A DNA stretch of 64,000 nucleotides, from NCBI RefSeq assembly GCF_037042905.1, contig NC_087245.1, positions 17,548,001 to 17,612,000 of the forward strand, given 5' to 3'. Below are positions 3,891 to 61,189 of this stretch, piece by piece. The translations under genes were made by a program, and so were the position numbers. The stretch comes from Lytechinus pictus (Eukaryota). The notes under the pieces were generated by a model, which saw only the letters and a program-made list of their open reading frames with translations, made no database searches and was not told where the DNA came from. The number at the start of each line of letters is the position of its first letter. The first letter of the stretch is position 1.

Positions 3891-4000
3891 TTACCTGGGA
3901 TATTACCCGGCTAAGCTAGGCGTTCTTCCATGTTCCTACAGGAAGTTCTGTCCCAACACAATCACCATCGGTAATTGTTTTTTATGTCAATATCGTATAG

Positions 4001-4995
4001 ATACTCCCATGGATGCATCACCACCCCAAGAAACTCCTGGTGGAGGAAGTTCGACAACTTCACCAGAACTTTCATCCATTGGATCACCTGAAGCTTCGTC
4101 AGAACAAGCAATGACCCCAATGACAGGCTCTTCAACTACTCCATCAGAACCTGCGACCAATGGTACAACAATATATTCGCAGGAACATACGTCAGGTTAT
4201 TCGACAACTCCATCAGAACATACGACAGACGATGCGGCTACAACTTTGTCACACCCTACAACAATTCCTTCTACGGAGGCTTTACCTGAAACCACAACTA
4301 AAGGAAATTTAGATGTGAATTCATGTAAGATGCTCTATTCAATGGGGCATCAAACAAGTGGTGTCTATGCCATCTCTCCTAGCGGTGTGGGACTGACCGA
4401 TGTCTACTGCGATATGACCACCGATAGCGGAGGGTGGACAATCTTCCAGGTACGTTCCGCTAGGTTCTCGGTGTGAAATGAATCTATCCGATGTTTATGT
4501 TTTATTAAGATGGTCAATATTTTTGCTTAATCGCATCTTTTTTTTTCCTTTTTTTTTTAATTTTTTTTTAAAAGAACTTTCGCTCTATCCACCATTTCAT
4601 TCTGGCCTCTTCATCATGTTAATATAGGCCAAATAAGTAGAATTTTGTAGACTTGCTCGGTTCGCCCGCTCACAATTTTTCTGAAATATTCCAACGTATC
4701 TAAACTCAACCTTCTCTTGCACGCTCACTATTCGATAATTTTTTTCACATACCACATCCTTCACAATAATAATGTGCATACAGAAACGTTATGACGGATC
4801 TGTGGATTTTTACCGCAATTATACCGAGTATGTTCGTGGATTTGGTGACGTCGAGGGCGAATACTGGTTGGGATTAGACCAACTCTACTTACTTGCTAAA
4901 GATGGAGTCGAACTCAGAATCGATATGGTTGATTACGATAACAATCCATTCTACGCTCATTATGGCAGTTTTAGCATTGGAAGTACCAACACCAA
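4001..4995 (+). pseudogene. FReD/mucin-stalk gene copy A, truncated
   Basis: Exons 4001-4449 (S/T-rich, then NSCKMLYSMGHQTSGVYAI...VYCDMTTDSGGWTIFQ; TAG acceptor, GTACGT donor) and 4784-4995 (KRYDGSVDFYRNYTEYVRGFGDVEGEYWLGLD). The terminal exon is absent: homology to copy C breaks near 9300 and resumes near 10861. The 5' exons were not found in 1-3900 but could lie outside the window. Confidence 0.8.
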
Positions 4996-5288
4996 GTAAG
5001 GTTCTTACAATTTTCCTTCGCTATAATTATAGAGAGAGCGTATGGAAAACGTTACATTTTGGAAAAGCTGTCAAAATTACGCTTATTAATGAAGTATCAT
5101 TGTGTAATATCTCTAAAATCTTCTCTATTAGATGACACCACGATATATTTTGTTCATGCTTGAGCGCAAAACGACATGTTTTATCAGAGTGACGAGAATG
5201 GCTTGCGCCATAATGAAGGAAATGGGCAGTCAAATCAAATGATTTGCTCGAGTTATTAAGATCTTTTCACATACTATTTATTCTTAAT

Positions 5289-8072
5289 TAGTACAGGATA
5301 GAAGAGGCATATCCTTGTTTTTACATATATATTATATTTTTTGATGGTTTCTTGTCAATTTGAGGGTGCTGATTACGAATCTGAATGATGCCACTCGTGT
5401 AACCTTGAGCATTTTCCACAAATGGGCAAAATCCAATATGGCCGCCAAAATATGCAAATTACCCATGAAAATCATAAAATTGCCCGCACATTGGCAACAA
5501 AATACATGAAAGTGTGTGGCAGGAGTGAAATACTCGCTGAAAAAATAATTTTTGACAAAATATCTATTTTCTGGATCATAATGGCCGCCATAGGCCTCTG
5601 TATACTCTATTATGTGCAACATGAATAGGGAAAACTAATTTTCACAAAAAATGAGCACTAAACTGCAAGAAATCGTGATCTATGAACGAAGTTCTGTATG
5701 CAAATCGTCATTACTAACGAGATATATCATTTATTATATCATGTATGGGAACATTTCTGTATTTTGATATTTAAAATAGCCGCCACTGGCCAAAACAGTA
5801 TTATGTACAATGGCAAAGGGGGCCAAAAAAATCACAAGAGTGAGCACTAAAATGCATATTATTAAGATAAACGAGTGGAATACTGACTAAAAACATAATT
5901 GTTAGCGAAATTTATCATTTAATATACCATATATGTGATAAATGTTGTATTTTGATATTCAAAATTGCTGCCTAAGACCCTAACAGTATTATGTACAATG
6001 AGAAAGAGGACCAAAGAAATTACAAGAGGTGGCACTAAAATGCATATGTATGTGATAAAGTTACGTAATACTGTCTAAAAAAAAAAACCATAATGAATAT
6101 TCGTAGTACACGTAAATGGAGTAGATCTCGAACGAAATATAGTTTGTGTTAAATACTGTATTTTGACTTTCAAATTGGCCGCCATAGACATTGACTGTAT
6201 TATGTATAATGCGAACTGGGAAACTAATATTCACAGGAGTGAGCACCATAAATGTACGTTGTATTGATCCATGAGTAAAATATTGCCTGAAAGCATAATT
6301 TCTAACAAGATATATCATTTATTCTGCCAGTTAGGTGACAAATACTGTATTTTAAAAGTAAAAATGGCTACTACAGGCCCTTACGGTATATTATGTACCA
6401 TGTAAATGGAAAAAAAATGATTTCAACATAATTTGGCTTTGCTTGACTAAATGGTGTTGTATGAGTGAAATATTGTCTGAAAACATCATTTATAACAAAA
6501 ATATATCATATCTTGTGTAATTTAGGTGATAAATATTGTATTTAAACATTCAAAATGGCCGTCATATGCCCTTTTGTGAAAATTATCTGTCGTCATTCAA
6601 ATTGACGATAAGGGCCTATGATGGCTATTTTCAATTTCAAAATGCAGCATTTTCAACTTAATTACACAAGATATGATATATCTCGGCAGAAACCATGGTT
6701 TTAGGCAATATTTCACCCTTACATCACAATTATATGCAATATCTATAGTCACTCAAGCAAAGCCAAATTCTGTCAAAATTATATGTCACATGTTCCTATG
6801 TACATAATACTTTTAGGACCTATGGCAGCCATTTTGGATTTCAAAGTATACAGCATTTATTACCTCCATGACCAATATGTGATGTATGTAGTTAGAAATC
6901 ATGTTTAAGACAATATTTTTAATCGTACATAACAGTTACATGCATTTTATGATTCTCACTCTTGTGAAAATTAGTTTGGTTAGGGCTTGTAGCGGCTATT
7001 TTGAATGTCAAAATACAGTATTTATCACCTACATGGCAGAAGAAATGCTATAATTCCTTCAAAATTATGTTTTCAAATAATATTTTACTCATACAACAGG
7101 ATTATATGGATTTCATAGTCAAGCAAACCCAAATTCTTACAAAATTATATGTCCCCATTTACATTCTAGATAATACTGTTAGGGCCTTTATGGGCCAATT
7201 TTGAATTTCACAATACAGCATTTATCTCATGCATGACAAAAGAAATGATATGCCTCGCTAGAAAACATGTTTTCAGACAAAATTTTACTCGTAGATCACA
7301 ATTACATGTATTTTATGTTTCTTACTCTTGTGAAAAATAGTTTCTCCATTTGCATTGTACATAATGAATATAGGGCCCATGGCGGCCATTTTGAATGTCA
7401 AATTATAGCATTTATCACATACATGGCATGATGAATAATATCTTTTGTTAACAATTATGTTTTTAGTCAGTATTCCACACGTTTATCTTAATAATATGCA
7501 TTTTAGTGCTCACTCTTGTGATTTTTTTGGCCCCCATTGCCATTGTACATACTACTGTTTGGGCCAGTGGCAGCTATTTTAAATAATAAAATACAGCAAT
7601 TTTCCCATACATGACATAATATATATATCTCGTTAGTAATGGTGATTTGCATACTGTACTTCGTTCATATATCACGATTTCTTGCAGTTTAGTGCTCATT
7701 TTTGTGAAAATGAGTTTTCCCTATTCATGTTGTACATAATAGAGTTTACAAAGGGCTATGGCGGCCATTTTGAATATCCAGAAAATATATATTTTGTCGA
7801 AAATTAATTTTTCAGAGAGTATTTCACTCCTGCCACAAAATGTCATGCATTTATCGCCAATGTGCGGGCAATTTTGTGACTTTCATGGGTAATTCAAATA
7901 TTTTGGCGGCCATATTGGATTTTGCCAATTTGTGGAAAATGCTCAAGGTTACGCGAGTGACATCATTCAGATTCATAATCAGCACCCTCGAATTGACAAG
8001 CAACCATAAAAAAATATTGTATATATGAAAAAACAAGGTTCGTCAATTTTCTATGGGGCCAATCCTGGACTA
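5289..8072. mobile_element. Non-autonomous foldback DNA transposon, Academ-like (copy A intron)
   Basis: Termini TAGTACAGGAT...ATCCTGGACTA, 3-bp TSD AAT, inverted arms over 600 bp, and subrepeats of about 155 bp containing AAAATGGCCGCC. TAG...CTA ends with a short TSD fit Academ; the family call is inference. Confidence 0.8.
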
Positions 8073-9469
8073 AATCATGCTTAAAACAGTGGACAATAGA
8101 AATTTAAAAAATCTATTTTGGGTATTCACGTACGTGATTTTGACAGCTTTTTCAAAATGAAACGTTTATCGTTCATCAAATTTTGATTTTTGTTTATATT
8201 GCTTATATAATTCTTCATTACACATTACTACCGAACCAACAGCAACGGTAATTATCATTTCCCTAATCATCCCCGGGTAATTTGTGCATTTTCACTCCCG
8301 GTTCACCCCCCCCCCCCCTCCGCTCGTAATCGCGATATCTGCGCGATGGCGGAAAATGACGGTTGCATCTTAGCAAACTTTCACTAAATCTATATTATCT
8401 TGTCCCATACACAAATTAACTATCTTTATTTGCGCTATGGAAGTAGAATTTGGGGGTAAATCTATCGATAAAGCCATCGAAAAACTTTTTTTTCAGAGAC
8501 TCTTTGTATCTAGGATTGTTATAAATATGCATACACATAAAATGTTTTCTTAAGTGGGTCTTTTTATCGTTGTGTTTTTCCTGTTTATTTATTTTTTTTA
8601 ACTATGTTTTTTCATGGAATTTTTCGTCGATACTTGAAAGTGCTATTTAAATCGAATGTTACAAGGGCCGCGAAACCGAAGGGGGGGCGGGTGGCGCTTC
8701 ATCTCTCCCAGTATTTAACCATTTTCACAAAGAGTGAAAATGACCAACGATTTTATGCATGCCCCCCCCCCTCGCTTTCCATATCGTTCTGCAGCCCCTC
8801 TGTTAAAAGATACAGTTACTAATTTTGACTAGAAACAGAGTTTACATTGGATTTGTGCATGAAATTACCTTTTTTAAGCAAATTTGGGCCTAACAATAAC
8901 CATGAGCAGATGACCAATAAACCGTGAATTACGATAATTTAAGGGGTACTCCAGGCTGAAAATGATATGATTTGAAAAAGATAAAGAAAAAATAGACAAA
9001 CAAAACACTGAAGAATTGTTTGAAAATGGACAAGGAATAACAAAGTTATGACATTATATAGATTTGCATTATTTATTTCATATTTTCATACATGTGTGTG
9101 TGATATATCTTTATCATGATAAAATAAGTTGCAGCCATGAATATCTCATATATTATATCAATTGTCTATCCTTTTATATTTTGTTCTTAAAGAAAAAAAT
9201 GAATAAACATACTTTCATGTAAAAAAATACAAAAGAACAAGTGGGGATATGATATTATCGGTCTACTCATGAAGACATGTTTAGAACTGTTTATTACGGT
9301 AGGGAGCTTTTGCAATTTTGAACTTGAAATCGTGCAATCTGATGCATACTTAATGAGGTAAAATAACACACACAAGCGCGCGCGCACGCACACACACACA
9401 TACTCACACACACACACACACACGGGTGCGCGCACCACACACATACTACGCCTTGATGACAGACCTTGT

Positions 9470-10110
9470 GACAGACCCTGTCGCAGAAGGAATCGCAATC
9501 TCTTGAAGACCTTCATCAGTGCTCGTTGGGCTGTTTCCTGCTGTTGACGGCGGTTGGCGTCCATTTTGACATCGATTTTAGCCTCAGGTTTCAAGGAAAT
9601 CGCTGCCTTTGCGACTCTGTGACAATTTGAAGCCTTGTGGCTCTCAAATCTGGGTGATGCCTTTTTCCAGTTACAAAAGCCGACTGAAACAAATGCTGGT
9701 TCTTTGTTCTTGGCCAATTTCAAGAGTCCGCGTTTTTCTGCCTGTGCACAGTAGAAACACAGTACCCGTTTCAGGGAGGGTTCGTAATGGATCCAGGGGT
9801 AGCTTTGGTACCATTTGGCTTGAAACAGAATTTTCTGTTTTAGTTTCTACTACGGGAATGGAAGAAGTAGGGGGTGATTGGGGCTAACCCAGTCGTCAAA
9901 ACCGGCATCAGCTTCATCATCATCTTTCGCCTCAGATGCTCCATCACCCTCAACGGCACTTTCTTCTGGTTGAACTTCAGGAAGAACAGGCCTATCTCCG
10001 ACATCATCCGATTTTGATGTAGACGGTTGTTCGTCATCATGTTCTTCTTTCTCATTGTGCTTGAAAAAAGAAGTGATCTTTGATGTTTTCAACTTCTTAT
10101 TATGAGCCAT
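9470..10110 (-). pseudogene. hAT transposase N-terminal fragment (TTF-type zinc finger, ZMYM1-like)
   Basis: MAHNKKLKTSKITSFF..., then frameshifted FQAKWYQSYPWIHYEPSLKRVLCFYC...FVSVGFCNWKKA..RFESHKASNCH...LRFLLRQGL. Truncated beside a (CA)n tract. Confidence 0.85.
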
Positions 10111-10330
10111 CCTAGAATCCTAAAATCAATTCACACTGTGAATTATGTAAGTGACACACTCACATATATTTCCCCCTTAAAAAGTTAAGGAAGACAAGGC
10201 CTCCTGCTGAGCGGACTCACCACGTGTTTTTGTTTTCTAGCTAACTGCCTTAGCGCGTCCCTTCTCTCCCCGCACGTAATGCGCACATAACACGGCGTAC
10301 GCTCGTAATCCGCATCCCTGATTTTCAATA

Positions 10331-10615
10331 GCTTCTTTCACACGTTAAAAGCCAGTCTTGTGGTTATCTTGTGGTTATCTTGTGGTTTGCAATCTTAGAG
10401 GTATCTTGTGGTTATCTTGTGGTTTGCCCCATTTGAACACGCAAAACTCGTGGTTATCTTTTGGTTTCCACACCACGAGATTGCGCGCACTGCAAAATAT
10501 GCGCGATTAATCTTGTGGTTATCTTGTGGTTTCCAAACCACAAGATAACCACAAAATACTCGTAAGATTTTCTTTTTTTTACCGTCTGAATTGGCTTTCA
10601 CCGTGTGAATGCGGC
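10331..10615. mobile_element. MITE nested in the hAT fragment
   Basis: TIR TTCACACGTTAAAAGCCA / TGGCTTTCACCGTGTGAA (16 of 18 match), flanked by TA, with internal TCTTGTGGTTA 11-mer repeats. Confidence 0.65.
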
Positions 10616-10745
10616 TAATAACAATAAACACAATTACAATAATGATGAGGATTATTATTATCATCATCATAATTATTATTATTATTAATATTATAGTTGT
10701 TATCATTATTATTATTACTATTATTATCATCATTATGACTTATTA
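10616..10745. repeat. (AAT/ATT/ATC)n low-complexity microsatellite
   Basis: Seen directly in the sequence. Confidence 0.9.
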
Positions 10746-11274
10746 AGTAACCAAATATCATTCCCCAAAACCTGGGGGGGATGATTGTACATGCCATCCC
10801 CCCCACCTTGTGAGGTGGGGGGATGCATCCCCCTCATCCCCCCCGTTGTCTACGCCCCTGACCCGCCCCCCCCCCAAAAAAAAAAATGCAGAACTTCAGT
10901 TATTAAGAGTATGGCATCTGATTTTCTGGCCAAACATCCGTATCCTTTCCAATCCGAGTGGGGGGGGGGGGGTGCCTCTCACTGAAAAACCAGTCCAGAA
11001 TGATAGTCCTTTCTCAAGAGCTTTCAAGACACTGGACCCTGGTTCCTTTCACACCTTAAGGGCGCCACCTATTGCTGTCCTTTACCAGGAAACGAAACAA
11101 AACTGTTTATTCATATTTATTTATCAAAACCTAATAGACAATCATTATTCGGAGTTATTAAAACTCATATTAGTGAAAAGTGCGTAAGTTTCAATATTTT
11201 ACATCAAATCCAGACAATAACAGACTGTCATGAAAATTGCATTTTTCTCGTGACAATTTTATTTTCACTTTACA

Positions 11275-16925: not shown

Positions 16926-19900
16926 ATGAAAAAAACATCAGTAATCATGGTAAGCTCATACTTTCTAGTATCATTATTATTACTACACTGTAAAAAATGA
17001 AGTGCTAATTAAGCACTTACAGTGCTTGCATAGTGACTGCACTACGAGTGCTGATTTTTTAGTTCAAATTTAAACTAGAAAATCAATACTCGTATAGTGC
17101 AGTCACTATACATGCACTTTAAGTGCTAAAATAGCACTTTATTTTTTACAGTGTATTATCATTATTATTATTATCATTATCGCAGATTTCATATCCGTCA
17201 TGATTTATCATGGACATAATTACGGTTTCATGATGTTTACTTTTACTTCTTAGGCCAATTTTCCATTTCCTTTCTTGGTCAATAAAAAAAATGAACTAAA
17301 ATAGTTGCCTGTTATTTACATGTTGCACTCCTGTATTTGTCCCCCCCCCCCCTCATCTCTCTCTATATATATCTCTCTCTCCCTCCTTGAACAGTCTTGA
17401 AAACAAGTCCTTGTTCTTTTTTAATGTTCGATTTATTTAGGGAAAATTGATTTTGTATTCAGTTACGTCCATCACAATCGTCATGGAATTCTTAATTGAT
17501 ATCTCTTTCTGCTTCTTTCAGTCTGTCGTATGCTCATCACAGAGTTTGCCTATTTTCCTGTTCCTCATTCCAGTGAGTTTCGTTCATGGTGGTAAGTTTG
17601 AATTTGATATTTTGACCCTTTTTTATTTGTATTGATTATCATGATTACAAACAAAACATCTCATAATTACTGTAGACAAAAAGAAAAACAACATAGAAAA
17701 AATAACTAAAATAATAATCAGAATAACAATATCAATAAGAATATAAAGTGACCCTGTTTTTAATCATACACTTTCTTCTTATAATATTTTTGCGATACAT
17801 AAATCGCGGTATAATCTGTGAAGAGAATGTAATGTTGGATTGTAACATAGCCAATCCTTACTATCTTTTCAACAGTAAAGTAAATCGTGGAGAAAACACT
17901 CGGAATGATCACGAATGTATCGTAGATCCCGTGATCCCACTTTTATTTTTTGTAACTTCCAGTTTAGTTCATACTTCAGTACTTTACATATTTAACAGAA
18001 ATATTCGGGGAAACGCATAAACGATCAAAATTACCGTCTTGTCGATTTTTTTTAACAATACAGTTGCTGAATTAAAAGAGCTTTGCGACCCAGACCCTTT
18101 ATCATGTAAGAACATCAATCTATCTGGAGGGAGATCGATTCAACTAATTCCAAGATGAGCATCAACATCAAACGATCCTGAACCAGTTCTGGGAAAACTC
18201 CCATCTTGGCGCCATTTTGTCTGTGTTTTACCGAAAAGAAATGGTGAGTGCATAAAAACAATCTTCTACAGATATTTTGGACATGATAGGCCTTTGTCCC
18301 CTTATATCGTGAGATTTCGCAAAAATATTTTCTAGGCTATTTGGATTACAGTTGCTCATTTCACCTTTCTTTAGATGGGTATTATGACCGGTTCTCTCGA
18401 GCCATTTGGCGCATCTTCCTCCCGGATCTTCCTGTTCCTATAATATGCTAATATGTCGTCTATCGTGTTTAAGTATTTCTGGAGGAGCCGCATCTGTTAC
18501 AGGTGCTCTTCGAATTGTCATTTTTGTGTGACATTGTAGAGTTTTGCTTCTGACCAAATTGCTTTGTTGCACCAAATATGCAAAAGTCTATACATGTTAT
18601 TCATTGGCAGCGGAACGGTTTTGAAAGGGGGAGGGGCTGAACATACACAAAATCGCAATCATGGTCATTTTTGCGTTTTTGTACAAAGTTTTGGGAAAAG
18701 TGGGGCTGAAGCCCCTAGCCCCCCCCCCCCCGGTTCAGTGAGCCATGTTAATCTGTAAATGTGGAAGGGTCTGGTTAATTAAAGAATTCATTATTAACTT
18801 TTCCCCTTGTTTGTCCTTTATTTCGGATCGTGCTTTCCTACTATCTTTTGCAAAGAGCGATTTTGTACGATTCGTATTGACTATTGACTGCATCCTATGC
18901 AGTCTGCTTCCTCTTCTTGAACCATGGACCGTGTTTTAAAGTGTTTCGTAAATATCTTATCGAGAATAGTACTTCTATACAATGTGCCTTTACACTATCT
19001 TCTATAGGCGGGCCAGACCGGATTCGTTAATGTTTTTGCTCTCTTCCATCATCATGATCATGTGTCCATGTTTCTACTGTCTACAGGAAGTTCTGTCCCA
19101 ACACAATCACCATCCGTAAATAGTTTTTTAATTAGCATTATTATATCGTCTTTGTATTATTATGTCAATATCGTAGAGACTCCTACGGATACATCACCAC
19201 CACTAGAAACTCTCGATGGAGGAAGTTCGATAACCTCGCCAGAAATTTCATCCAGTGGATCAACTGAAGCTTCGTCAGAACAAGCAATGTCAGGCTCAGT
19301 AACTACTCCATCAGAACCTACGACCAATGGTAAAACAAGCCCCCAGCCCCCCTTCTCGGTTCCGTGCCCATAATAATCTGTAATAGCTCCATGGTTAAAG
19401 TGATAGGGTCTGATAACACTTCCATAATGATTTTCCTCGTTTGTCCTTTATGTCGGATCATGCATTCCTCCTAACCTTTTTGCAGTTAGGTATTGCGATT
19501 TTGCACGATTCTTATTGACCCAATCCTGTGCAGTCTTCTTCCTTTTCTTGAACCATGGATCATGTTTTTCATTGTTCCTTTAATGTCTCATCGAGAATGG
19601 TACTACTATCAATGTTTCTTCTAGACCAGACCGGTTTTGCTAATGTTTTTGCTCTCTTCCATTCATCTATGATCTTCCATGTTTCTCCTACACGAAGTTC
19701 TGTCCTAACACAATCACCATCGGTAATTGTTTTTTATGTCAATATCGTATAGATACTCCCATGGATGCATCACCACCCCAAAAGACTCCTGGTGGAGGAA
19801 GTTCGACAACTTCACCAGAACTTTCATCCAGTGGATCAACTGAAGCTTCGTCAGAACAAGCATTGACCCCAATGACAGGCTCTTCAACTACTCCATCAGA

Positions 19901-22900
19901 ACCTACGACCAATGGTGAAACAAGCCCCCAGCCCTCCTTCTCGGTTCCGTGCCCATAATAATCTGTAATAGCTCCATGGTTAAAGTGATAGGGTCTGATA
20001 ACACTTCCATAATGATTTTCCTCGTTTGTCCTTTATGTCGGATCATGCATTCCTCCTAACTCTTTTGCAGTTAGGTATCGCGATTTTGTACGATTCTTAT
20101 TGACCCAATCCTGTGCAGTCTTCTTCCTTTTCTTGAACCATGGATCATGTTTTTCAGTGTTCCTTTAATGTCTCATCGAGAATAGTACTGCTATCAATGT
20201 TTCTTCTAGACCAGACCGGTTTTGCTAATTTTTTTGCTCTCTTCCATTCATCTATGATCTTCCATGTTTCTCCTACACGAAGTTCTGTCCTAACACAATC
20301 ACCATCGGTAATTGGTTTTTATGTCAATATCGTATAGATACTCCCATGGATGCATCACCGCCCCAAGAAACTCCTGGTGGAGGAAGTTCGATAACTTCAC
20401 CAGAACTTTCTTCCAGTGGATCAACTGAAGCTTCGTCAGAACAAGCAATGACCCCAATGACAGGCTCTTCAACTACTCCATCAGAACATACGACAGACGA
20501 TGCAGCGACAACTTTGTCACACCCTACAACAATTCCTTCTACGGAGGCTTTACCTGAAACCACAACAAAAGGAACCTCAGGTGTGAATTCGTGTAAGACG
20601 CTCTATTCAATGGGGCATCAAACAAGTGGTGTCTATGCCATCTCTCCTAGCGGTGTGGGTCTGACCGATGTCTACTGCGATATGACCACCGATAGCGGAG
20701 GGTGGACAATCTTCCAGGTACGTTCCGCCAGGTTCTCGGTGTGAAATGAATCTATCCGATGTTTATGTTTTATTAAGATGGTCAATATTTTTGCTTAATC
20801 GCATCTTTTTTTTCGTTTCTCTTTTCTTTTCTTTTTTTAAAAGAACTTTTGCTCTATCCACCATTTCATTCTGGCCTCTTCATCATGTTAATATAGGCCA
20901 AATAAGTAGAATTTTGTAGACTTGCTCGCTTCGCCCGCTCACAATTTTTCTGAAATATTCCAACGTATCTAAACTCAACCTTCTCTTGCACGCTCACTAT
21001 TCGATAATTTTTTTCACATATCACATCCTTCACAATAATAATATGCATACAGAAACGTTATGACGGATCTGTGGATTTTTACCGCAATTATACCGAGTAT
21101 GTTCGTGGATTTGGTGACGTCGAGGGCGAATACTGGTTGGGATTAGACCAACTCTACTTACTTGCTAAAGATGGAGTCGAACTCAGAATCGATATGGTTG
21201 ATTACGATAACAATCCATTCTACGCTCATTATGGCAGTTTTAGCATTGGAAGTACCAACACCAAGTAAGGTTCTTACAATTTTCCTTCGCTATAATTATA
21301 GAGAGAGCGTATGGAAAACGTTACATTTTGGAAAAGCTGTCAAAATTACGCTTATTAATGAAGTATCATTGTGTAATATCTCTAAAATCTTCTCTATTAG
21401 ATGACACCACGAGATATTTTGTACATGCTTGAGCGCAAAACGACATGTTTTATCAGGGTGACGAGAATGGCTTGCACCATAATGAAGGAATGGGCAGTCA
21501 AATCAAATGATTTGCTCGAGTTATTAAGATCTTTTCACATACTATTTATTCTTGATTAGTACAGGATAGAAGAGGCATAACCTTGTTTTTACATATATAT
21601 TATATTTTTTGATGGTTTCTTGTCAATTTTAGAGTGCTGATTACGAATCTGAATGATGCCACTCGTGTAACCTTGAGCATTTCCCGCAAATTGGCAAAAT
21701 CCAATATGGCCGCCAAAATATGCAAATTACCCATGAAAATCATAAAAATTGCCCGCACATTGGCAACAAAATGCATGAAATTGTGTGGCAGGAGTGAAAT
21801 ACTCGCTGAATAAATAATTTTTGACAAAATATCTATTTTCTGGATCATAATGGCCGCCATAGGCCTCTGTATACTCTATTATGTACAACATGAATAGGGA
21901 AAACTAATTTTCACAAAAAATGAGCGCTAAACTGCAAGAAATCGTGATCTATGAACGAAGTTCTGTATGCAAATCGTCATTACTAACGAGATATATCATT
22001 TATTATATCAAGTATGGGAACATTTCTGTATTTTGATATTTAAAATAGCCGCCACTGGCCAAAACAGTATTATGTACAATGGCAAAGGGGGCCAAAAGAA
22101 TCACAAGAGTGAGCACTAAAATGCATATTATTAAGATAAACGAGTGGAATACTGACTAAAAACATAATTGTTAGCGAAATTTATCATTTAATATGCCATG
22201 TATGTGATAAATGTTGTATTTTGATATTCAAAATTGCTGCCTAAGACCCTAACAGTATTACGTACAATGAGAAAGAGGACCAAAGAAATTACAAGAGGTG
22301 GCACTAAAATGCATATGTATGTGATAAAGTTACGTAATACTGTCTAAAAAAACCATAATGAATATTCGTAGTACACGTAAATGGAGTAGATCTCCAACGA
22401 AATATAGTTTGTGTTAAATACTATATTTTGACTTTCAAAATGGCCGCCATAGACATTGACTGTATTATGTATAATGCGAACTGGGAAACTAATATTCACA
22501 GGAGTGAGCACCATAAATGTACGTTATAGTGATCCATGAGTATAATATTAGCAACAGTAAGGAAAGACTATCCCCCAGCAAAGCACAATCATATCATCTT
22601 CCTTATCTTTTCTTTTAACTACCCTTTTCCCAACAACTTCGCCGGTTAAAAATAATCAGCAGTGCGCTGCCTGCATATAACCGGCGCCGATCAAGGATAA
22701 TCAGCGCCACCTAAATCTAAATCGGGGCCGGACAAGAATAATCAGCGCCATCTGGTTATAAATCGGCGCTGCCAGAGTCTTAACCGGCGCCGATCAAGAA
22801 TAGGCCTAATCAGCTCCACCTAAATCTAAATCGGCGCCAGGCAAGAATAAACGGCGCCATCTGGTTATAAATCGGCGCCGGTATAGAAAAATCGGCGCTG

Positions 22901-50977: not shown

Positions 50978-53900
50978 ATGAAAAAAACATCAGTAATCAT
51001 GGTAAGCTCATACTTTCTATTATTATTATTATTACTATTATCATTATTATTATTATCATTATCGCAGATTTCATATCCGTCATGATTTATCATGGACATA
51101 ATTACGGTTTCATGATGTTTACTTTTACTTCTTAGGCCAATTTTCCATTTCATTTCTTGGTCAATAAAAAAAATGAACTAAAATAGTTGCCTGTTATGTA
51201 CATGTTGCACACCTGTATTTGTCCCCTCCCCCCCTCATCCCTCTCTCTATATATATATCTCTCTCTCCCTCCTTGAACAGTTTTGAAAACAAGTCCTTAT
51301 TCTTTTTTAATGTTCGATTTATTTAGGGAAAATTGATTTTGTATTCAGTTACGTCCATCACAATCGTCATGGAATTCTTAATTGATATATCTTTCTGCTT
51401 CTTTCAGTCTGTTGTATGCTCATCACAGAGTTTGCCTATTTTCCTGTTCATTCCAGTGAGTTTCGTTCATGGTGGTAAGTTTGAATTTGATATTTTGACC
51501 CTTTTTTATTTGTATTGATTATCATGATTATAAACAAAACATCTCATAATTACTGTAGACAAAAAGAAAAACAACATAGAAAAAATAACTAAAATAATAA
51601 TCAGATTAACAATATCAATAAGAATATAAAGTGACCCTGTTTGTAATCATACACTTTCTTCTTATAATATTTTTGCGATTTATAAATCGCGGTATAATCT
51701 GTGGAGAGAATGTAATGTTGGATTGTAACATAGCCAATCCTTACTATCTTTTCAACAGTAAAGTAAATTGTGGAGAAAACACTCGGAATGATCACGAATG
51801 TATCACAGATCCCGTGATCCCACTTTAATTTTTTGTAACTTCCAGTTTAGTTCATACTTCAGTACTTTACATATTTAAAAGAAATATTCGGGGAAACGCA
51901 TAAACGATCAAAATTACCGTCTTGTCGATTTTTTTTTTACAATACAGTTGCTGAATTTAAAGAGCTTTGCGACCCAGACCCTTTATCATGTAAGAACATC
52001 ACTCTATCTGGAGGGAGATCGATTCAATTCATTCGAAGATTAGCATCAACATCAAACGATTCTGAACCAGTTCTGGTAAAACTCCCATCTTGGCGCCAAT
52101 TTGTCTGTGTTTTACCGAAAAGAAATGGTGAGTGTATAAAAACAATCTTCTACATATATTTTGGACATGATAGGCCTATGTCCCCTTACATCATAAGATT
52201 TCGCAAAAATATTTTCTAGGCTATTTGGATTACAGTTGCTCATTTCACCTTTCTTTAGATGGGTATTATGACCGGTTCCCTCGAGCCATTTGGCGCATCT
52301 TCCTCCCGGATCTTCCTGTTCCTATAATCATGATAATATGCTAAAGAGATACTGTAACCGGCGTGTGGTCTATCGTGTTTAAGTATTTCTGGAGGAGCCA
52401 CATCTGTTACAGGTGCTCTTCGAATTGTCATTTTTGTGTGACATTGTAGAGTTTTGCTTCTGACCAAATTGCTTTGTTGCACCAAATATGCAAAAGTCTA
52501 TACATGTTATTCATTGGCAGCGGAACGGTTTTGAAAGGGGGAGGGGCTGAACATACACAAAATCGCAATCATGGTCATTTTTGCGTTTTTGTACAAAGTT
52601 TTGGGAAAAGTGGGGCTGAAGCCATGTTAATCTGTAAATGTGGAAGGGTCTGGTTAATTAAAGAATTCATTATTAACTTTTCCCCTTGTTTGTCCTTTAT
52701 TTCGGATCGTGCTTTCCTACTATCTTTTGCAAAGAGCGATTTTGTACGATTCGTATTGACTGCATCCTATGCAGTCTGCTTCCTCTTCTTGAACCATGGA
52801 CCGTGTTTTAAAGTGTTTCGTAAATATCTTATCGAGAATAGTATTTCTATACAATGTGCCTTTACACTATCATCTATAGGCCGGCCAGACCGGATTCGTT
52901 AATGTTTTTGCTCTCTTCCATCATCATGATCATGTGTCCATGTTTCTACTACAAGAAGTTCTGTCCCAACACAATCACCATCCGTAAATAGTTTTTTAAT
53001 TAGCATTATTATATCGTCTTTGTATTATTATGTCAATATCGTAGAGACTCCTACGGATGCATCACCACCACTAGAAACTCTCGATGGAGGAAGTTCGACA
53101 ACTTCGCCAGAAATTTCATCCAGTGGATCAACTGAAGCTTCGTCAGAACAAGCAATGTCAGGCTCAGTAACTACTCCATCAGAACCTACGACCAATGGTA
53201 AAACAAGCCCCCAGCCCCCCTTCTCGGTTCCGTGCCCATAATAATCTGTAATAGCTCCATGGTTAAAGTGATATGGTCTGATAACACTTCCATAATGATT
53301 TTCCTCGTTTGTCCTTTATGGCGGATCATGCATTCCTCCTAACTCTTTTGCAGTTAGGTATCGCGATTTTGCACGATTCTTATTGACCCAATCCTGTGCA
53401 GTCTTCTTCCTTATCTTGAACCATGGATCATGTTTTTCATTGTTCCTTTAATGTCTCATCGAGAATAGTACTGCTATCAATGTTTCTTCTAAACCAGACC
53501 GGTTTTGCTAATGTTTTTGCTCTCTTCCATTCATCTATGATCTTCCATGTTTCTCCTACACGAAGTTCTTTCCCAACACAATCACCATCGGTAATTGGTT
53601 TTTATGTCAATATCGTATAGATACTCCCATGGATGCATCACCACCCCAAGAAACTCCTGGTGGAGGAAGTTCGACAACTTCACCAGAACTTTCTTCCAGT
53701 GGATCAACTGAAGCTTCGTCAGAACAAGCAATGACCCCAATGACAGGCTCTTCAACTACTCCATCAGAACATACGACAGACGATGCAGCGACAACTTTGT
53801 CACACCCTACAACAATTCCTTCTACGGAGGCTTTACCTGAAACCACAACAAAAGGAACTTCAGGTGTGAATTCGTGTAAGATGCTCTATTCAATGGGGCA

Positions 53901-56900
53901 TCAAACAAGTGGTGTCTATGCCATCTCTCCTAGCGGTGTGGGACTGACCGATGTCTACTGCGATATGACCACCGATAGCGGAGGGTGGACAATCTTCCAG
54001 GTACGTTCCGCCAGGTTCTCGGTGTGAAATGAATCTATCCGATGTTTATGTTTTATTAAGGTGGTCAATATTTTTGCTTAATCGCATCTTTTTTTTCCTT
54101 TTTTTTTTTTTTTTTTTTTTTTAAAGAACTTTCGCTCTATCCACCATTTCATTCTGGCCTCTTCATCATGTTAATATAGGCCAAATAAGTAGAATTTTGT
54201 AGACTTCCTCGGTTCGCCCGCTCACAATTTTTCTAAAATATTCCAACGTATCTAAACTCAACCTTCTCTTGCACGCTCACTATTCGATAATTTTTTTCAC
54301 ATATCACATCCTTCACAATAATAATATGCATACAGAAACGTTATGACGGATCTGTGGATTTTTACCGCAATTATAACGAGTATGTTCGTGGATTTGGTGA
54401 CGTCGAGGGCGAATACTGGTTGGGATTAGACCAACTCTACTTACTTGCTAAAGATGGAGTCGAACTCAGAATCGATATGGTTGATTACGATAACAATCCA
54501 TTCTACGCTCATTATGACAGTTTCAGCATTGGAAATACCAACACCAAGTAAGGTTCTTACAATTTTCCTTCGCTATAATTATAGAGAGAGCGTATGGAAA
54601 ACGTTACATTTTGGAAAAGCTGTCAAAATTACGCTTATTAATGAAGTATCATTGTGTAATATCTCTAAAATCTTCTCTATTAGATGACACCACGATATAT
54701 TTTGTTCATGCTTGAGCGCAAAACGACATGTTTTATCAGAGTGACGAGAATGGCTTACGCCATAATGAAGGAAATGGGCAGTCAAATCAAATAATTTGCT
54801 CGAGTTATTAAGATCTTTTCACATACTATTTATTCTTAATTAGTACAGGATAGAAGAGGCATAACCTTGTTTTTACATATATATTATATTTTTTGATGGT
54901 TTCTTGTCAATTTGAGGGTGCTGATTACGAATCTGAATGATGCCACTCGTGTAACCTTGAGCATTTTCCGCAAATTGGCAAAATCCAATATGGCCGCCAA
55001 AATATGCAAATTACCCTTGAAAATCATAAAATTGCCCGCACATTGGCAACAAAATGCATGAAATTGTGTGGCAGGAGTGAAATACTCGCTGAAAAAATAA
55101 TTTTTGATAAAATATCAATTTTCTTGATCATAATGGCCGCCATAGGCCTCTGAATACTCTATTATGTGCAACATGTGAATAGGGAAAACTAATTTCCACA
55201 AAAAATGAGCACTAAACTGCAAGAAATCGTGATCTATGAACGAAGTTCTGTATGCAGATCGTCATTACTAACGAGATATATCATTTATTATATCATGTAT
55301 GGGAACATTTCTGTATTTTGATATTTAAAATAGCCGCCACTGGCCAAAACAGTATTATGTACAATGGCAAAGGGGGCCAAAAAAAATCACAAGAGTGAGC
55401 ACTAAAATGCATATTATTAAGATAAACGAGTGGAATACTGACTAAAAACATAATTGTTAGCGAAATTTATCATTTAATATGCCATGTATGTGATAAATGT
55501 TGTATTTTGATATTCAAAATTGCTGCCTAATACCCTAACCGTATTATGTACAATGAGAAAGAGGACCAAAGAAATTACAAGAGGTGGCACTAAAATGCAT
55601 ATGTATGTGATAAAGTTACGTAATACGTACTGTCTAAAAAAGCCATAATGAATATTCGTAGTACACGTAAATGGAGTAGATCTCCAACGAAATATAGTTT
55701 GTGTTAAATACTGTATTTTGACTTTCAAAATGGCCGCCATAAACATTGACTGTATTATGTATAATGCGAACTGGGAAACTAATATTCACAGGAGTGAGCA
55801 CCATAAATGTACGTTATAGTGATCCATGAGTAAAATATTGCCTGAAAGCATAATTTCTAACAAGATATATCATTCATTCTGCCAGTTAGGTGACAAATAC
55901 TGTATTTTAAAAGTAAAAATGGCTACTACATGCCCTTACGGTATATTATGTACCATGCAAATGGAAAAAAATGATTTCAACAGATTTTGGCTTTGCTTGA
56001 CTAAATGGTGTTGTATGAGTGAAATATTGTCTGAAAACATCATTTATAACAAAATATATCATATATTGTGTAATTTAGGTGATGAATACTGTATTTAAAC
56101 ATTCAAAATGGCCGTCACATGCCATTTTGTGAAAATTATCTGTCCACATTCAAATTGACGATAAGGGCCTATGATGGCTATTTTCAATTTCAAAATGCAG
56201 CATTTTCAACTTAATTACACAAGATATGATATATCTCGGCAGAAACCATGGTTTTAGACAATATTTCACCCTTACATCACAATTATATGCAATATTTATA
56301 GTCAAGCAAAGCCAAATTCTGTCAAAATTATATGTCACCTGTTCCTATGTACATAATTCTTTTAGGACCTATGGCAGCCATTTTGGATTTCAAAGTATAC
56401 ATCATTTATTACCTCCATGACCAATATGTGATGTATGTAGTTAGAAATCATGTTTAAGACAATATTTTTAATCGTAAATAACACTTACATACATTTTATG
56501 ATTCTCACTCTTGTGAAAATTAGTTTGGTTAGGGCTTGTAGCGGCTATTTTGAATGTCAAAATACAGTATTTATCACCTACACGGCAGAAGAAATGCTAT
56601 AATTCCTTCAAAATTATGTTTTCAAATAATATTTTACTCATACAACAGGATTATATGGATTTCATAGTCAAGCAAACCCAAATTCTTACAAAATTAAATG
56701 TCCCCATTTACATTCTAGATAATACTGTTAGGGCCTTTATGGGCCAATTTTGAATTTCACAATACAGCATTTATCTCATGCATGACAAAAGAAATGATAT
56801 GCCTCGCTAGAAAACATGTTTTCAGACAAAATTTTACTCGTAGATCACAATTACATGCATTTTATGTTTCTTACTCTTGTGAAAAATAGTTTCTCCATTT

Positions 56901-58956
56901 GCATTGTACATAATAAATATAGGGCCCATGGCGGCCATTTTGAATGTTAAATTATAGCATTTATCACATACATGGCATAATGAATAATGTCTTTTGTTAA
57001 CAATTATGTTTTTAGTCAGTATTCAACTCGTTTATCTTAATAATATGCATTTTAGTGCTCACTCTTGTGATTTTTTTGGCCCACATTGCCATTGTACATA
57101 ATACTGTTTGGGCCAGTGGCGGCTATTTTAAATATCAAAATACAGCAATTTTCCCATACATGACATAATATATATATCTCGTTAGTAATGGTGATTTGCA
57201 TACTGTACTTCGTTCATATATCACGATTTCTTGCGGTTAAGTGCTCATTTTTGTGAAAATGAGTTTTCCCTATTCATGTTGTACATAATAGAGTTTACAG
57301 AGGCCTATGGCGGCCATTTTGAATATCCAGAAAATAGATATTTTGTCAAAAATTATTTTTTCAGAGAGTATTTCACTCCTGCCACAAAATTTCATGCATT
57401 TATTGCCAATGTGCGGGCAATTTTGTGACTTTCATGGGTAATTCACATATTTTGGCGGCCATATTGGATTTTGCCAATTTGTGGAAAATGCTCAAGGTTA
57501 CACGAGTGACATCGTTCAGATTCGTAATCAGCACCCTCGAATTGACAAGCAACCATCAAAAAATATTGTATATATGAAAAAACAAGGTTTGTCAATTTTC
57601 TATTTGGCCAATCCTGGACTAAATCATGCTTAAAACAGGGGACAATATAAATTTTAAAAATCTATTTTGGGTATTCACATACGTGATTTTGACAGCTTTT
57701 TCAAAATGAAACGTTTATCGTTCATCAAATTTTGATTTTTGTTTATATTGCTTATATAATTCTACATTACACATTACTACCGAACCAACAGCAACGGTAA
57801 TTATCATTTCCCTAATCATCCCCGGGTAATTTGTGCCTTGATTTGAAAAATATAAAAAAAATAGACAAACAAAACACTGAAGAATTGTTTGAAAATGGAC
57901 AAGGAATAACAAAGTTATGACATTATATAGATTTGCATTATTTCGGTGAAACAGTTCTAAACATGTCTTCATGAGTAGACCGATAATATCATATCCCCAC
58001 TTGTTCTTTTGTATTTTTTTACATGAAAGTATGTTTATTCATTTTTTTCTTTAAGAACAAAATATAAAAGGATAGACAATTGATATAATATATGAGATAT
58101 TCATGGCTGCAACTTATTTTATCATGATAAAGATATATCACACACACATGTATGAAAATATGAAATAAATATAATTTCATGTAACAACATAAAAAGGTAA
58201 AGTGGGGAGGTGACATCATCAGCCCACCTACTCAATATTCATGCAACGTTCATATAACTGTTTCACAATATTGCTGAATTTTACTATAGGCAAATATACT
58301 TAGATATAATAATTTTCAACCCGGAGTAACCCTTTATTCTGATGTTGATTACATTTTCAATGTAATGCTTGTTTAAATTTATTTTAAAGTAAATGAATAA
58401 AGATATTAATGAATTAATTGAAACAAAATAGATAAAATATAATGACGTGACAAAAAATTAATGAATTACAAAATAATATTCATGCACGGAGCATTTTTCA
58501 ACTTAGGGGCCCTACGAAAATAAGAAGTAAAAATGAAAGTGCTGATACTTAGATCCTCGGGTGCGATACGTCAGACATATTTTCATTATATTTTCTCTTC
58601 AATCGCAATCTTGAATTTACATGACTGTTTTAAGGTTCTATATAGTCTTAGACTAAATTAAATTTAATGTATGTATTTACTATCTTCAACAAAGCTACCG
58701 AATCGGGTTTTCATCATATACCGGTACTGCAGAAGAAGGGCTAGATGCAGCCAACGGACAAGCCTTCTTAACTTATGACAATGACCATGATGATTGTGCT
58801 TTTCTGTACAGAGGGGCGTGGTGGTATAACGACGTATACTGTGATACCACAGCCAACTTGAATGGGGAACACGGACTCCAATATGGTTTTACAGGGATTT
58901 TTTGGGATTTCCCTAACTCAAAATACATGAGAGCTACAGAAATGAAGTTAAGATGA
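50978..58956 (+). CDS. Secreted fibrinogen C-terminal domain protein with mucin-like stalk, copy D (425 aa model)
   Basis: Exons 50978-51001, 51408-51474, 51948-52127, 53045-53197, 53621-54000, 54336-54547, 58695-58956. Total 1278 nt, open; all exonic indels relative to C are multiples of 3. Confidence 0.85.
54841..57621. mobile_element. Same Academ-like foldback (copy D)
   Basis: AAT-TAGTACAGG...CCTGGACTA-AAT. Confidence 0.8.
58695..58956 (+). CDS. Terminal FReD exon, copy D (not in the ORF track)
   Basis: YRIGFSSYTGTAEEGLDAANGQAFLTYDNDHDDCAFLYRGAWWYNDVYCDTTANLNGEHGLQYGFTGIFWDFPNSKYMRATEMKLR*. Confidence 0.92.
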
Positions 58957-61189
58957 TCGGATTGATCCATGTTGTTGTCATTCCTTTCTACCTAATTTTT
59001 TAAGTTCTTATACATAGTGATTTTAAAGCACAATGTAGTCCAAGTGATTGTGTATATTAGAGAATCACTTGAAAAACAGGAATAAGCAATTTAAACATAT
59101 TTCATGTAATGATCTATATCTATAATGGATTTCATGTCAACATGGTAACACGAACATGGGCCTCATGTTTCGGAGGGGGGGGGGTGGGGTGGGCTGCTCA
59201 CGTATAATGGTAGAACCGGTACGTGGCTCTTAAGACCCCTTTTCACTCATTGACCAACCCGTTCTCCCTCGCTCCTTCATGTCCTAACTAAGCCCTTTAT
59301 TTTATTCGTCAGTTCTCGATGACCACATTTCATTGTAAATTCCACCCGCCCCCCCCCCCCCAAAAAAAAATGCAGAACTTCAGTTCTTAAGAGTATGGCA
59401 TCTGATTTTCTGGCCAAACATCCGTATCCTTTCCAATCCGAGTGGGGGGGGGGGTGCCTCTCACTGAAAAACCAGTCCAGAATGATAGTCCTTTCTCAAG
59501 ATCTTTCAAGACACTGGACCCTGGTTCCTTTCACACCTTAAGGGCGCCACCTATTGCTGTCCTTTACCAGGAAACGAAACAAAACTGTTTATTCATATTT
59601 ATTTATCAAAACCTAATAAACAATCATTATTCGGAGTTGTTAAAACTCATATTAGTGAAAAGTGCGTAAGTTTCAATATTTTACATCAATTCCAGACAAT
59701 AACAGACTGTCATGAAAATTGCATTTTTCTCGTGACAATTTTATTTTCACTTTACAAAATCCCAGCCATGGCGTAATTTCCTTCAGCAAGAAATGTATCC
59801 ACATTGTGCTGCACTCAACCCAGGTGAGGTGAATGGGTACCCGGTAGGAAGAAATTCCTTGAATGCTTGAGCAGCCCAGCTAAAGCCAGGGTAATAATAA
59901 TAGCAGGGCCCGCTGGGAGAACAGTTTTCAGAACTGAAGTGGCTTCCCTGGGTCAATATACCTATATAACTATATTATTATAAAATACGTACCTTTTGAA
60001 TTTATCTTTGATACAACCGATGTAGAAGAGGCTTGGCTATTATAGTATGACGTATAAATTTATATGTCTCTCTCTCACTTACACACCCTCCCTGCATGAT
60101 TTTCTATTATTCATGCCATGTAAGTAGACTTAAGTTTTTGACGAAATACTGTTATGTTTTTGTTTATCTGCTTATATTCCTCAGATTGTATATTTGTTTT
60201 GCATTACCTAGTATTTTTGTTTTGAACAAAATATTGGCGAATGCCAGTGATGCTCTAATAGTAAATTCAGTTCAATTCATGTTAGCAGTAAACAAACATA
60301 CTCCAAGGAAGAACAAAACGAGTTCGGTCTAAAGTCTGTCCTTGGATGAACGGCGAGTTAATTAGTGAGATGAATAGACGAAATAAGTTTCATAAAATGA
60401 TATTAAAGTATAAGTGCTCAGAATATACTGACAATGGACAAAACATCGAGAATTACCGTTTACCCTTTCAAGCCACTTTAAATTTTAATGTGGAAGTGTG
60501 TGGACAATTGTAAAATGTTGATTTAAAACTTGTCAAATTTTGAGGATTTTCACATTTTTGAACTGTCTTACTGTTATACCATATTTTGCCCAATTTCTGG
60601 ATATATTAATGTTTTGATATATATTTCTTCATGTGTTAATTTAATATCCACATTTTGTGATCAAATAAAATTGGAAATATTCGCAATTATCTATTTTCAA
60701 CAAAACTCACTTTCTAGTTTTCCCATGAAACTGGCGGCATCACAGGTCGCCAACAAAGGCTACATTGCACCTGTGTATTCTTTTGTACTTCTTTAGAAAT
60801 CGAAAGGTACATGAATTAATTTGCATTTCGTTGACACTCCATCTTTTTTACCTCCATGGAATTATCGACCAATTTCTCTCCTTAGTTATAATTTTTATCG
60901 AAGATTCAAGAGAGAGCTGTAGTTGCGTAACTATGGGGGGGGGGGCAGAGATAACGGAGAAAAAAGAAGAGAATTGAGGAAGGAAGAAAGAGAGACATTG
61001 TGACAGACATTGTGGGAAATGAAAGAAGGGGAATGTAAATAATATTATTTTGATAATTTGATGAAAAATAATGTGCATAGGGTCTATGTGCTCATCACTC
61101 CTGGTGCTAATATTTACGGAAGCTTAAAAGTGCCACCGAGATGACGAGATAATTCCTCGTCTTCTCGACTTTTTGGGTCCGATAAAGCG

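What the first reader, a model, noticed from the sequence alone, without database searches (positions are those of the whole stretch)
3900..61112. Young tandem cluster of secreted mucin-stalk FReD proteins: candidate diversifying innate-recognition family
Seen: four near-identical paralogues built as signal peptide, 60-aa Cys exon, variable-length S/T/P stalk and C-terminal FReD. There is no collagen (ficolin), Ig (snail FREP), obvious coiled coil (angiopoietin/fibrinogen) or transmembrane segment. Copies differ in two modular ways, stalk length and ligand-subdomain sequence, and span intact (C, D), conditional (B) and truncated (A) states. Known: invertebrate FReD families such as tachylectin-5, ficolins and FREPs expand as pattern-recognition lectins. 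Inference: birth-and-death evolution of a recognition or adhesion family. FReD expansions are well known; only this architecture may be undescribed.
Basis: partly seen in the sequence, partly recalled or inferred. Interest (0 to 1): 0.72.

Follow-up and report, generated by a model that had tools for sequence, protein, structure and literature searches.

The report
Sea urchin variable-tip fibrinogen-domain gene array
A young cluster of near-identical sea urchin genes encodes secreted proteins with a long stalk and a fibrinogen-type head that differ mainly at the binding tip, as expected of a diversifying recognition family of a known kind whose target is still unknown.

Summary
Four 15-18 kb units, 95-99% identical, encode signal peptide, 60-aa module, S/T/P stalk and FReD. 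C and D are intact, B carries a stop, and A has lost both ends. The C and D models match RefSeq Lytechinus pictus proteins, auto-named ANGPTL/MFAP4-like, and about 11 such loci are annotated. Five of six predicted junctions occur as spliced GT-AG joins in public runs.

Added here: variation is concentrated in the ligand-binding P subdomain (42 of 79 columns, against 10 of 127 in the rest of the FReD). Its DNA is 3-4 times more diverged than non-coding DNA of the same units, the variable columns lie beside the calcium and acetyl-pocket positions, and tips are recombined onto different N-termini. The canonical acetyl pocket is not conserved.

Not shown: dN/dS clearly above 1, tissue, induction, ligand, or rescue of B. 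Stalk-plus-FReD layouts occur in other echinoderms, and a 21-gene tandem FReD cluster is published. Verdict: a real, apparently uncharacterised variant of a known kind; an immune role is inferred (about 0.55).

The parts
3900..9300 (+). Copy A, truncated at both ends; derived from a C-like unit. Keeps E6 (4001-4449) and E7 (4784-4995) only
   Evidence: 98.7% to C over 5.4 kb; no E1-E3 or E8 by probe; exon edges
9301..10860 (-). Insertion with a transposase-like zinc-finger fragment that replaces the last FReD exon of A
   Evidence: Gap in homology to C 43655-45054; zf-C17orf113 E=0.0025, below the curated cut-off; transposon origin is inference
16926..16949 (+). Copy B exon 1 (start codons)
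   Evidence: ATG followed by GTAAG donor
17522..17591 (+). Copy B exon 2, signal peptide
18064..18243 (+). Copy B exon 3, 60-aa module with in-frame TGA at codon 56
   Evidence: otherwise one residue from RefSeq locus P0005
19177..20717 (+). Copy B stalk exons E4 (19177-19329), E5 (19753-19914, extra repeat) and E6 (20338-20717, stalk end + FReD start)
21053..21264 (+). Copy B exon 7, FReD core
26984..27248 (+). Copy B exon 8, FReD P subdomain and stop
35306..35329 (+). Copy C exon 1 coding part (two in-frame ATGs)
   Evidence: RefSeq P0001 uses the first ATG; the E1-E2 join was not among the joints shown
35736..35805 (+). Copy C exon 2, signal peptide
   Evidence: spliced join to E3 in X1
36278..36457 (+). 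Copy C exon 3, 60-aa three-Cys module of no known family
   Evidence: no Pfam hit; Lytechinus-only hits; weak homologue in stalkless P0182; joins on both sides in X1
37365..37517 (+). Copy C exon 4, S/T/P repeat exon (phase 1-1; absent from RefSeq isoform P0002)
38348..38796 (+). Copy C exon 6, stalk with 23-aa insertion + FReD start
39131..39342 (+). Copy C exon 7, nearly invariant FReD core
   Evidence: 0-4 differences in 212 nt among B, C, D; Pfam; joins
44402..44666 (+). Copy C exon 8, hypervariable P subdomain (calcium loop and ligand-pocket loops) and stop; transcript contigs run on to about 45049
50978..54547 (+). Copy D exons 1-7 (E1 to 51001, E2 51408-51474, E3 51948-52127, E4 53045-53197, E6 53621-54000, E7 54336-54547)
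   Evidence: equals RefSeq P0003
58695..58956 (+). Copy D exon 8, P subdomain with a 12-nt deletion in the calcium loop and a 9-nt insertion shifting the second Cys, both in frame
   Evidence: folds with pLDDT 84-98 per block

Best explanation
A recently amplified Lytechinus family of secreted FReD recognition proteins. Each gene makes a signal peptide, a small N-terminal module, an extended and probably O-glycosylated S/T/P spacer whose length is set by adding or skipping phase-1 repeat exons, and one FReD head.

Unequal crossing-over and gene conversion keep introns, UTRs and the FReD core nearly identical and shuffle modules between copies. The loops around the calcium site and ligand pocket escape this homogenisation and differ from copy to copy. 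The array therefore delivers several binding specificities on one scaffold, most likely against variable foreign surfaces (microbes or parasites), with non-acetyl or altered ligands because the classical acetyl pocket is remodelled.

Shown: gene structure, splicing, fold, localised divergence, mosaicism. Inferred: secretion, glycosylation, oligomerisation, selection as the cause, and the immune target.
For: Five of six predicted junctions of C appear as GT..AG joins at the predicted edges. The head folds as an FReD (pLDDT 80-98 per block; Foldseek to M-ficolin E=2e-25, rmsd 1.4 A), and so does the indel-bearing D head.

Among 11 loci, 42 of 79 P-subdomain columns vary against 10 of 127 in the rest; 15 against 0 have three or more states; there are 9 distinct P sequences; mean identity is 79% against 98%. 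Eleven of the 15 most variable columns lie within 2 residues of FIBCD1 calcium or S1 positions (33 of 75 positions qualify, p=0.018).

P-subdomain DNA differs at 15/229, 21/199 and 20/199 sites against 2.2-2.7% in non-coding DNA of the same pairs and 0.7-1.7% in the flanking 300 nt on either side. Loss of constraint alone should not exceed the non-coding rate. Both indels in D's E8 keep the frame. All four combinations of two N-module types and two tip types occur (loci D, E, F, G). Expanded invertebrate FReD families acting in recognition are established (PMC11741071, passages).
Against: E8 dN/dS is 1.13, 0.76 and 0.65 and synonymous divergence is raised as well (0.056-0.13, on only 3-7 changes), so three DNA copies do not demonstrate positive selection. 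Older alleles or donor tracts would give the same pattern. The P boundary was drawn after seeing the alignment, so the p-values are descriptive. In B-C and B-D, 1.2% and 3.9% of equal-sized windows elsewhere reach the same count; these involve the stalk-repeat exons, where the alignment register is ambiguous.

No tissue, challenge or binding data were obtained. The only echinoderm tandem FReD cluster I read about is linked to regeneration (PMC5638244, passages). At least 2 of the 4 window copies look dead.
Confidence: 0.55

Rival explanations
1. Neutral patchwork. A dosage-driven or neutral segmental amplification in which conversion tracts happen to spare, or import from older paralogues, the last exon. 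The tips differ by history and weak constraint, not by selection for new specificities.
For: dN/dS not above about 1 and dS raised in E8; A truncated and B nonsense; calcium-loop residues deleted in three loci and both Asp ligands lost in one; repeat-rich, unstable units.
Against: The divergent island is about 180 nt wide, coincides with the ligand loops and is flanked by nearly identical sequence on both sides; scaffold motifs inside the same exon stay nearly invariant and indels are in frame.
Confidence: 0.17
2. Matrix, adhesive, mucus or wound-repair protein. The stalked FReD binds host or substrate glycans or proteins, in the manner of MFAP4 or tenascin heads, and copy number serves bulk secretion in one tissue.
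For: Best solved-structure sequence hit is MFAP4, on a par with ficolins and tenascin; the acetyl pocket of immune lectins is not conserved; the sea cucumber tandem FREP cluster rises in regeneration; spliced contig depth differs about 100-fold between X1 and X2 (a poor measure of expression).
Against: A fixed host ligand predicts a conserved, not hypervariable, binding tip.
Confidence: 0.15
3. Self/non-self or gamete recognition. A polymorphic FReD ligand on the egg coat or body surface, working like ascidian v-Themis, with a co-evolving receptor.
For: v-Themis genes are highly polymorphic fibrinogen-like egg-coat proteins (PMC8849226, passages); rapid change confined to the binding tip fits receptor-ligand co-evolution.
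Against: v-Themis genes sit inside an intron of their receptor gene, on the opposite strand; no such partner was seen in this window (ORF list read by eye). Here the diversity is between tandem copies; allelic diversity was not measured.
Confidence: 0.1
4. Assembly artefact. Haplotypes of one or two genes stacked in tandem.
For: B differs from locus I by only a stop and one residue, and F and G share an identical tip, so one or two loci could be allelic duplicates; read depth and spanning long reads could not be checked.
Against: A diploid gives at most two haplotypes per locus, but 9 distinct tips occur among 11 loci, and copies carry different insertions.
Confidence: 0.03

Closest known systems
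Ficolins / tachylectin-5A / FIBCD1 (acetyl-binding FReD lectins)
   Same: C-terminal FReD with the same fold; Asp393/Asp395-type calcium ligands in 10 of 11 loci; Cys401 invariant; stalk-and-head layout.
   Different: No collagen, coiled coil or TM segment. Pocket residues differ: His415 is Tyr throughout, the Tyr431-Ala432 pair aligns to a gap plus Leu/Val/Phe, and the Trp443 loop is two residues shorter. The tip is hypervariable between copies.
Apostichopus japonicus tandem FREP cluster (21 genes; PMC5638244)
   Same: Lineage-specific tandem amplification of FReD genes in an echinoderm (passages).
   Different: Reported as regeneration-induced; architecture and tip variability are not described in the passages read. 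The Holothuria leucospilota FReDs in my tree fall outside this clade; A. japonicus sequences were not compared.
Other echinoderm and invertebrate stalked FReDs (Patiria XP_038065619, Acanthaster XP_022101895, Plectus A0A914VWG1; unnamed P0042, P0227)
   Same: Low-complexity S/T/P stretch in front of an FReD.
   Different: Their N-terminal parts are PAN-like, coiled-coil-like or lectin-like rather than the 60-aa module; apart from P0042 they lie outside the Lytechinus clade. All are automatic annotations.
Biomphalaria IgSF-FREPs
   Same: Diversified secreted FReD family used in recognition (PMC11741071, passages).
   Different: No Ig domain here; variation is in the FReD tip and is germline in the assembly.
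SpTransformer (Sp185/333) family of the purple sea urchin
   Same: Clustered, near-identical sea urchin genes diversified by segmental duplication, deletion and conversion (PMC5103432, abstract).
   Different: Unrelated protein; immune function is tested for SpTrf and untested here.
MFAP4 / ANGPTL1 / ANGPTL7 (the RefSeq names of these genes)
   Same: FReD similarity at the level of any FReD (MFAP4 E=1e-46, ficolin-2 E=1.2e-46).
   Different: Names are automatic and differ between near-identical copies; no coiled coil; the family groups with unnamed records and a Diadema FReD, although MFAP4 and ANGPTL rows were not in that tree.

Membership tests
FReD (fibrinogen-related domain) superfamily | Complete fibrinogen C-terminal domain | tested here: met
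   Pfam PF00147 positions 4-219 over three exons; model and Foldseek TM(target) 0.90
FReD (fibrinogen-related domain) superfamily | Calcium-site aspartates and P-subdomain disulfide | tested here: inconclusive
   Both Asp kept in 10 of 11 loci, but the loop that supplies the carbonyl ligands is four residues shorter in D, E and H, and the second Cys is shifted in D and E; binding not testable
Ficolin | Collagen-like Gly-X-Y stalk | tested here: not met
   longest Gly-X-Y run is one triplet
Ficolin / TL5A / FIBCD1 acetyl-binding lectins | S1 pocket Tyr405, His415, Tyr431, Ala432, Trp/Tyr443 (FIBCD1 numbers) | tested here: not met
   Tyr405 kept in 8 of 11; His415 is Tyr in all; Ala432 aligns to Leu/Val/Phe; Trp443 not aligned to an aromatic. 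Based on sequence alignment with gaps in these loops
Ficolin / TL5A / FIBCD1 acetyl-binding lectins | Oligomeric, multivalent carbohydrate binding | not testable with these tools
   needs recombinant protein
Gastropod IgSF-FREP | One or two N-terminal Ig domains | tested here: not met
   no Pfam match on E3, E4 or the stalk
Angiopoietin / ANGPTL | N-terminal coiled coil | tested here: not met
   0-1 Pro-free 28-aa windows before the FReD; no long helix in the models
FIBCD1 | Type II transmembrane anchor | tested here: inconclusive
   only one moderately hydrophobic N-terminal stretch (maximum 1.9), read as a cleavable signal; no SignalP available
PAN/apple-FReD proteins | N-terminal PAN domain (is the 60-aa module a degenerate PAN?) | tested here: not met
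   HMM of 21 PAN-like domains scores the module -2.5 bits; 1696 of 2000 shuffles score as high; hhalign probability 0.1%
v-Themis-type allorecognition ligand | Egg-coat location, allelic polymorphism, nested in a receptor gene | not testable with these tools
   no nested partner seen in the window; tissue and alleles not available
Innate pattern-recognition receptor | Binds microbes or is induced by challenge | not testable with these tools
   run descriptions are coded and carry no tissue or treatment

The most novel reading that the evidence does not exclude
A previously uncharacterised sea urchin germline recognition repertoire in which a constant scaffold is homogenised while a hypervariable, non-acetyl-binding FReD tip is maintained by selection and recombined between copies, with copy sets differing between animals. 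It would be a second SpTransformer-like diversifying system, built on an FReD and a new N-terminal oligomerisation module, in a laboratory sea urchin.
Probability: 0.2. Interest if true: 0.65.

Novelty: new variant of a known kind. Interest (0 to 1): 0.38.

Why it matters
Invertebrate FReD expansions are common, but this one is young enough (FReD core 98% identical, tips 66-100%) that the few residues that change specificity can be read off directly. If the tips bind different foreign surfaces, it gives a compact test of how selection at a binding site resists gene conversion, and a candidate immune family now hidden under misleading ANGPTL/MFAP4 names. If the rivals hold, it is one more tandem FReD array.

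Tried and rejected
No whole genome is held for this window, so loci outside the window are known only as RefSeq proteins.

Degenerate-PAN origin of the 60-aa module: suggested by eye, tested and rejected. Pfam and two ESM Atlas look-ups gave no family for the module; these blanks do not show novelty. The structure models give the module pLDDT about 50 or lower, with four tentative strands, which is not usable. A homodimer prediction for the module returned no answer, score 0.00; this is not evidence either way.

The run search listed no holder on record as RNA. The two raw-read RNA runs gave only 2 junction reads each in about 6% of each run. The table of other letters was dominated by intronic repeats, so I could not tell which copy is expressed or whether the stop of B is present in RNA.

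The first whole-unit divergence scan was distorted by misaligned insertions and was redone on collinear blocks. The global alignment of P0182 with the family misplaced the module and was not used.

Literature searches that found no description of this family in their listings. The library lacks most subscription papers, and no supplementary gene tables were searched, so the family may be listed there. Three look-ups of earlier scan findings returned nothing.
Full report
Observation. The window is AT-rich, repeat-laden animal DNA with four tandem units of 15-18 kb at about 94-99% identity. Exon probes and splice-site anchors give a common plan: E1 (start), E2 (signal peptide), E3 (180 nt), one or two phase-1 S/T/P repeat exons (E4, E5), E6 (stalk end plus FReD start), E7 and E8. 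Joined by coordinates, C gives 443 aa and D 418 aa without stops. B has one TGA at codon 56 in E3. A keeps only E6 and E7, with its last exon replaced by a 1.6-kb insertion. The stalks are 134-188 aa and 54-56% S/T/P. There is no second hydrophobic segment, collagen run or coiled-coil-compatible stretch. Pfam places Fibrinogen_C across E6-E8 and nothing on E3.

Identity and size of the family. E3 and E8 searches return RefSeq proteins of Lytechinus pictus and one L. variegatus cluster. C and D equal P0001 and P0003 after seven extra N-terminal residues. The cluster look-up lists 14 current-assembly L. pictus proteins, all with a longest contig of 44.3 Mb. From accession and isoform labels I group them into 11 loci. 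This grouping is my inference and a lower bound, and it does not show that all are adjacent. For counts I used one protein per locus and left out three second isoforms and three older nr-only models. RefSeq names them ANGPTL1-, ANGPTL7-, MFAP4- or fibrinogen-alpha-like, inconsistently. In an FReD tree of 36 rows, the Lytechinus genes plus two unnamed records form a clade (100/99). Its sisters are a stalkless unnamed protein, P0182 (99/93), and a Diadema PAN-EGF-FReD (95/89).

Transcription. I laid 4 of the 23 listed runs on copy C at 85% likeness, so reads may come from any copy. Run X1 has all five (contig depth 162-459), X2 has three (about 2.5), and raw-read runs X21 and X22 have two junction reads each in about 6% of the run. 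The AAG acceptor of E8 is used. The family is therefore spliced as modelled and seems unevenly expressed, although contig depth is a poor measure and tissue is unknown. No join skipping E3 was shown, and the RefSeq models matching B start after the stop. B differs from locus I (P0005) only by the stop and one residue, so it is most simply a recently disabled copy, or an allele or sequencing error.

Where the copies differ. Among the 11 loci, 10 of 127 columns vary in the FReD core and 42 of 79 in the P subdomain. Columns with three or more states number 0 and 15, mean identity is 98% and 79% (minimum 66%), and there are 9 distinct tips. Against L. variegatus the figures are 92% and 74%, so some L. 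pictus pairs differ more at the tip than the two species do on average. In DNA, E8 differs by 6-9% between B, C and D, while the 300 nt on either side differ by 0.7-1.7% and E7 by 0-1.9%. On collinear blocks the P part differs at 15/229, 21/199 and 20/199 sites against 2.2-2.7% non-coding. The only rival peaks involve the stalk-repeat exons, where register is ambiguous. I set the P boundary after seeing the alignment, so the p-values are descriptive. dN/dS in E8 is 1.13, 0.76 and 0.65, with synonymous divergence also raised, against 0.16-0.30 among B, C and D in the stalk end and FReD start. This shows a divergent island, not formal positive selection. The two indels in D's E8 (-12 and +9 nt) keep the frame. 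Modules are recombined: two N-module types and two tip types occur in all four combinations (loci D, E, F, G), and repeat number and a 23-aa insertion vary between loci.

What the tip looks like. The head is modelled with pLDDT 80-98 per block in C and 84-98 in D and matches ficolins, tenascin, FIBCD1 and MFAP4 about equally. I took the FIBCD1 calcium and acetyl-pocket residues from PMC3908420 (passages) and mapped them through pigeon FIBCD1, which carries all 12 residues at a one-residue offset. Eleven of the 15 most variable columns lie within two residues of those positions (33 of 75 qualify; p=0.018). Both calcium aspartates are kept in 10 of 11 loci, but the loop that supplies the carbonyl ligands is deleted in three. 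The pocket is not canonical: His415 is Tyr, Ala432 aligns to Leu/Val/Phe and the Trp443 loop is shorter. The paper states that no residue other than Ala completes that pocket, so these proteins should not be filed as ficolin- or tachylectin-type acetyl lectins. These loops align with gaps, so the mapping is approximate.

The N-terminal module. It has no Pfam or Atlas match and only Lytechinus hits in the large search. It has one weak homologue at the same position in P0182 (18 of 43 identical, pairwise E=1e-4; E=0.0055 among 277 proteins), which is also the sister in the FReD tree, so the module is probably older than the stalk. Only the first Cys has a possible counterpart there, so 'Cys exon' overstates its conserved character. 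A lone conserved Cys would suit interchain linking, but that is inference. A degenerate-PAN origin was tested and rejected.

Architecture in context. Of 258 non-family FReD proteins fetched, 16 have a 50-aa window of at least 45% S/T/P before the FReD. Several of these are FN3 tenascins, but P0042, P0159 (Patiria), P0188 (Plectus), P0216 (Acanthaster) and P0227 carry real low-complexity stalks. Stalk-plus-FReD is thus a recurring layout; the combination with this module is what I could not find elsewhere.

Literature. A 21-gene tandem FREP cluster is published for Apostichopus and linked to regeneration (PMC5638244, passages; recapped in PMC13228809, passages). PMC11401434 notes many FReD proteins in L. 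variegatus and S. purpuratus without describing them in the passages read. PMC11741071 summarises FReD expansions and varied N-terminal partners (passages). PMC8849226 describes polymorphic fibrinogen-like v-Themis (passages). PMC5103432 describes the SpTransformer cluster dynamics (abstract). PMC10381214 has no mention of fibrinogen, and PMC3342357 mentions it only for molluscs and in references (passages). Seven searches showed no paper on this family in their listings; subscription papers and supplements were not covered.

Mechanism and verdict. The most likely reading (0.55) is a secreted, stalked recognition protein whose scaffold is homogenised and shuffled by unequal crossing-over and conversion while the binding loops diverge under pressure from variable foreign ligands. 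The rivals are a neutral conversion patchwork (0.17), a matrix, adhesive or repair role (0.15), gamete or allorecognition (0.10) and stacked haplotypes (0.03; at most two haplotypes per locus cannot give nine tips). It works like other diversified invertebrate FReD families but fails the membership tests for ficolin, IgSF-FREP, ANGPTL and acetyl-binding lectins. It is a new variant of a known kind, already auto-annotated and functionally untested. Interest 0.38.

Noticed in passing
window 9301-10860 (- strand ORFs 9187-9846, 9850-10119): Transposase-like zinc-finger fragment (weak zf-C17orf113 hit) inserted where copy A lost its last exon, next to half of an inverted-repeat element.
   Followed up: partly
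window 5313-8040 and the same intron in B, C, D (E7-E8 intron): Nested inverted repeats (about 690-1090 bp arms, 79-90% identical, with 188-bp subunits) fill the 4-6 kb intron just before the variable exon; they could promote or delimit recombination.
   Followed up: no
window 12939-13178, 29528-29767, 46958-47188: Short ORFs in the spacers of three units resemble a LINE reverse-transcriptase motif (recalled, not searched).
   Followed up: no
window 2147-3885 and 61156-61860: The array is bounded by tandem repeats: a 51/60/222-bp family upstream of A's breakpoint and a 53-bp array at the end of D.
   Followed up: no
window 22549-23710 and 31069-34760: Insertions private to unit B: a 41/124/227-bp tandem block and a 177-bp tandem array with an inverted arm.
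   Followed up: no
window 37530-37905 and 38176-38270: Small insertions in the E4-E6 intron of C draw very high read depth in all four runs, on both strands: high-copy repeats present in many transcripts. A's 5' breakpoint lies inside the second one.
   Followed up: partly
window 26984-26989: B has a CAG six bases inside E8, a possible in-frame second acceptor beside the AAG acceptor shared by the copies.
   Followed up: no
P0182 (unnamed Logan protein): Stalkless relative with signal peptide, the same N-terminal module and a 53% identical FReD; a compact candidate for solving the module's structure.
   Followed up: partly
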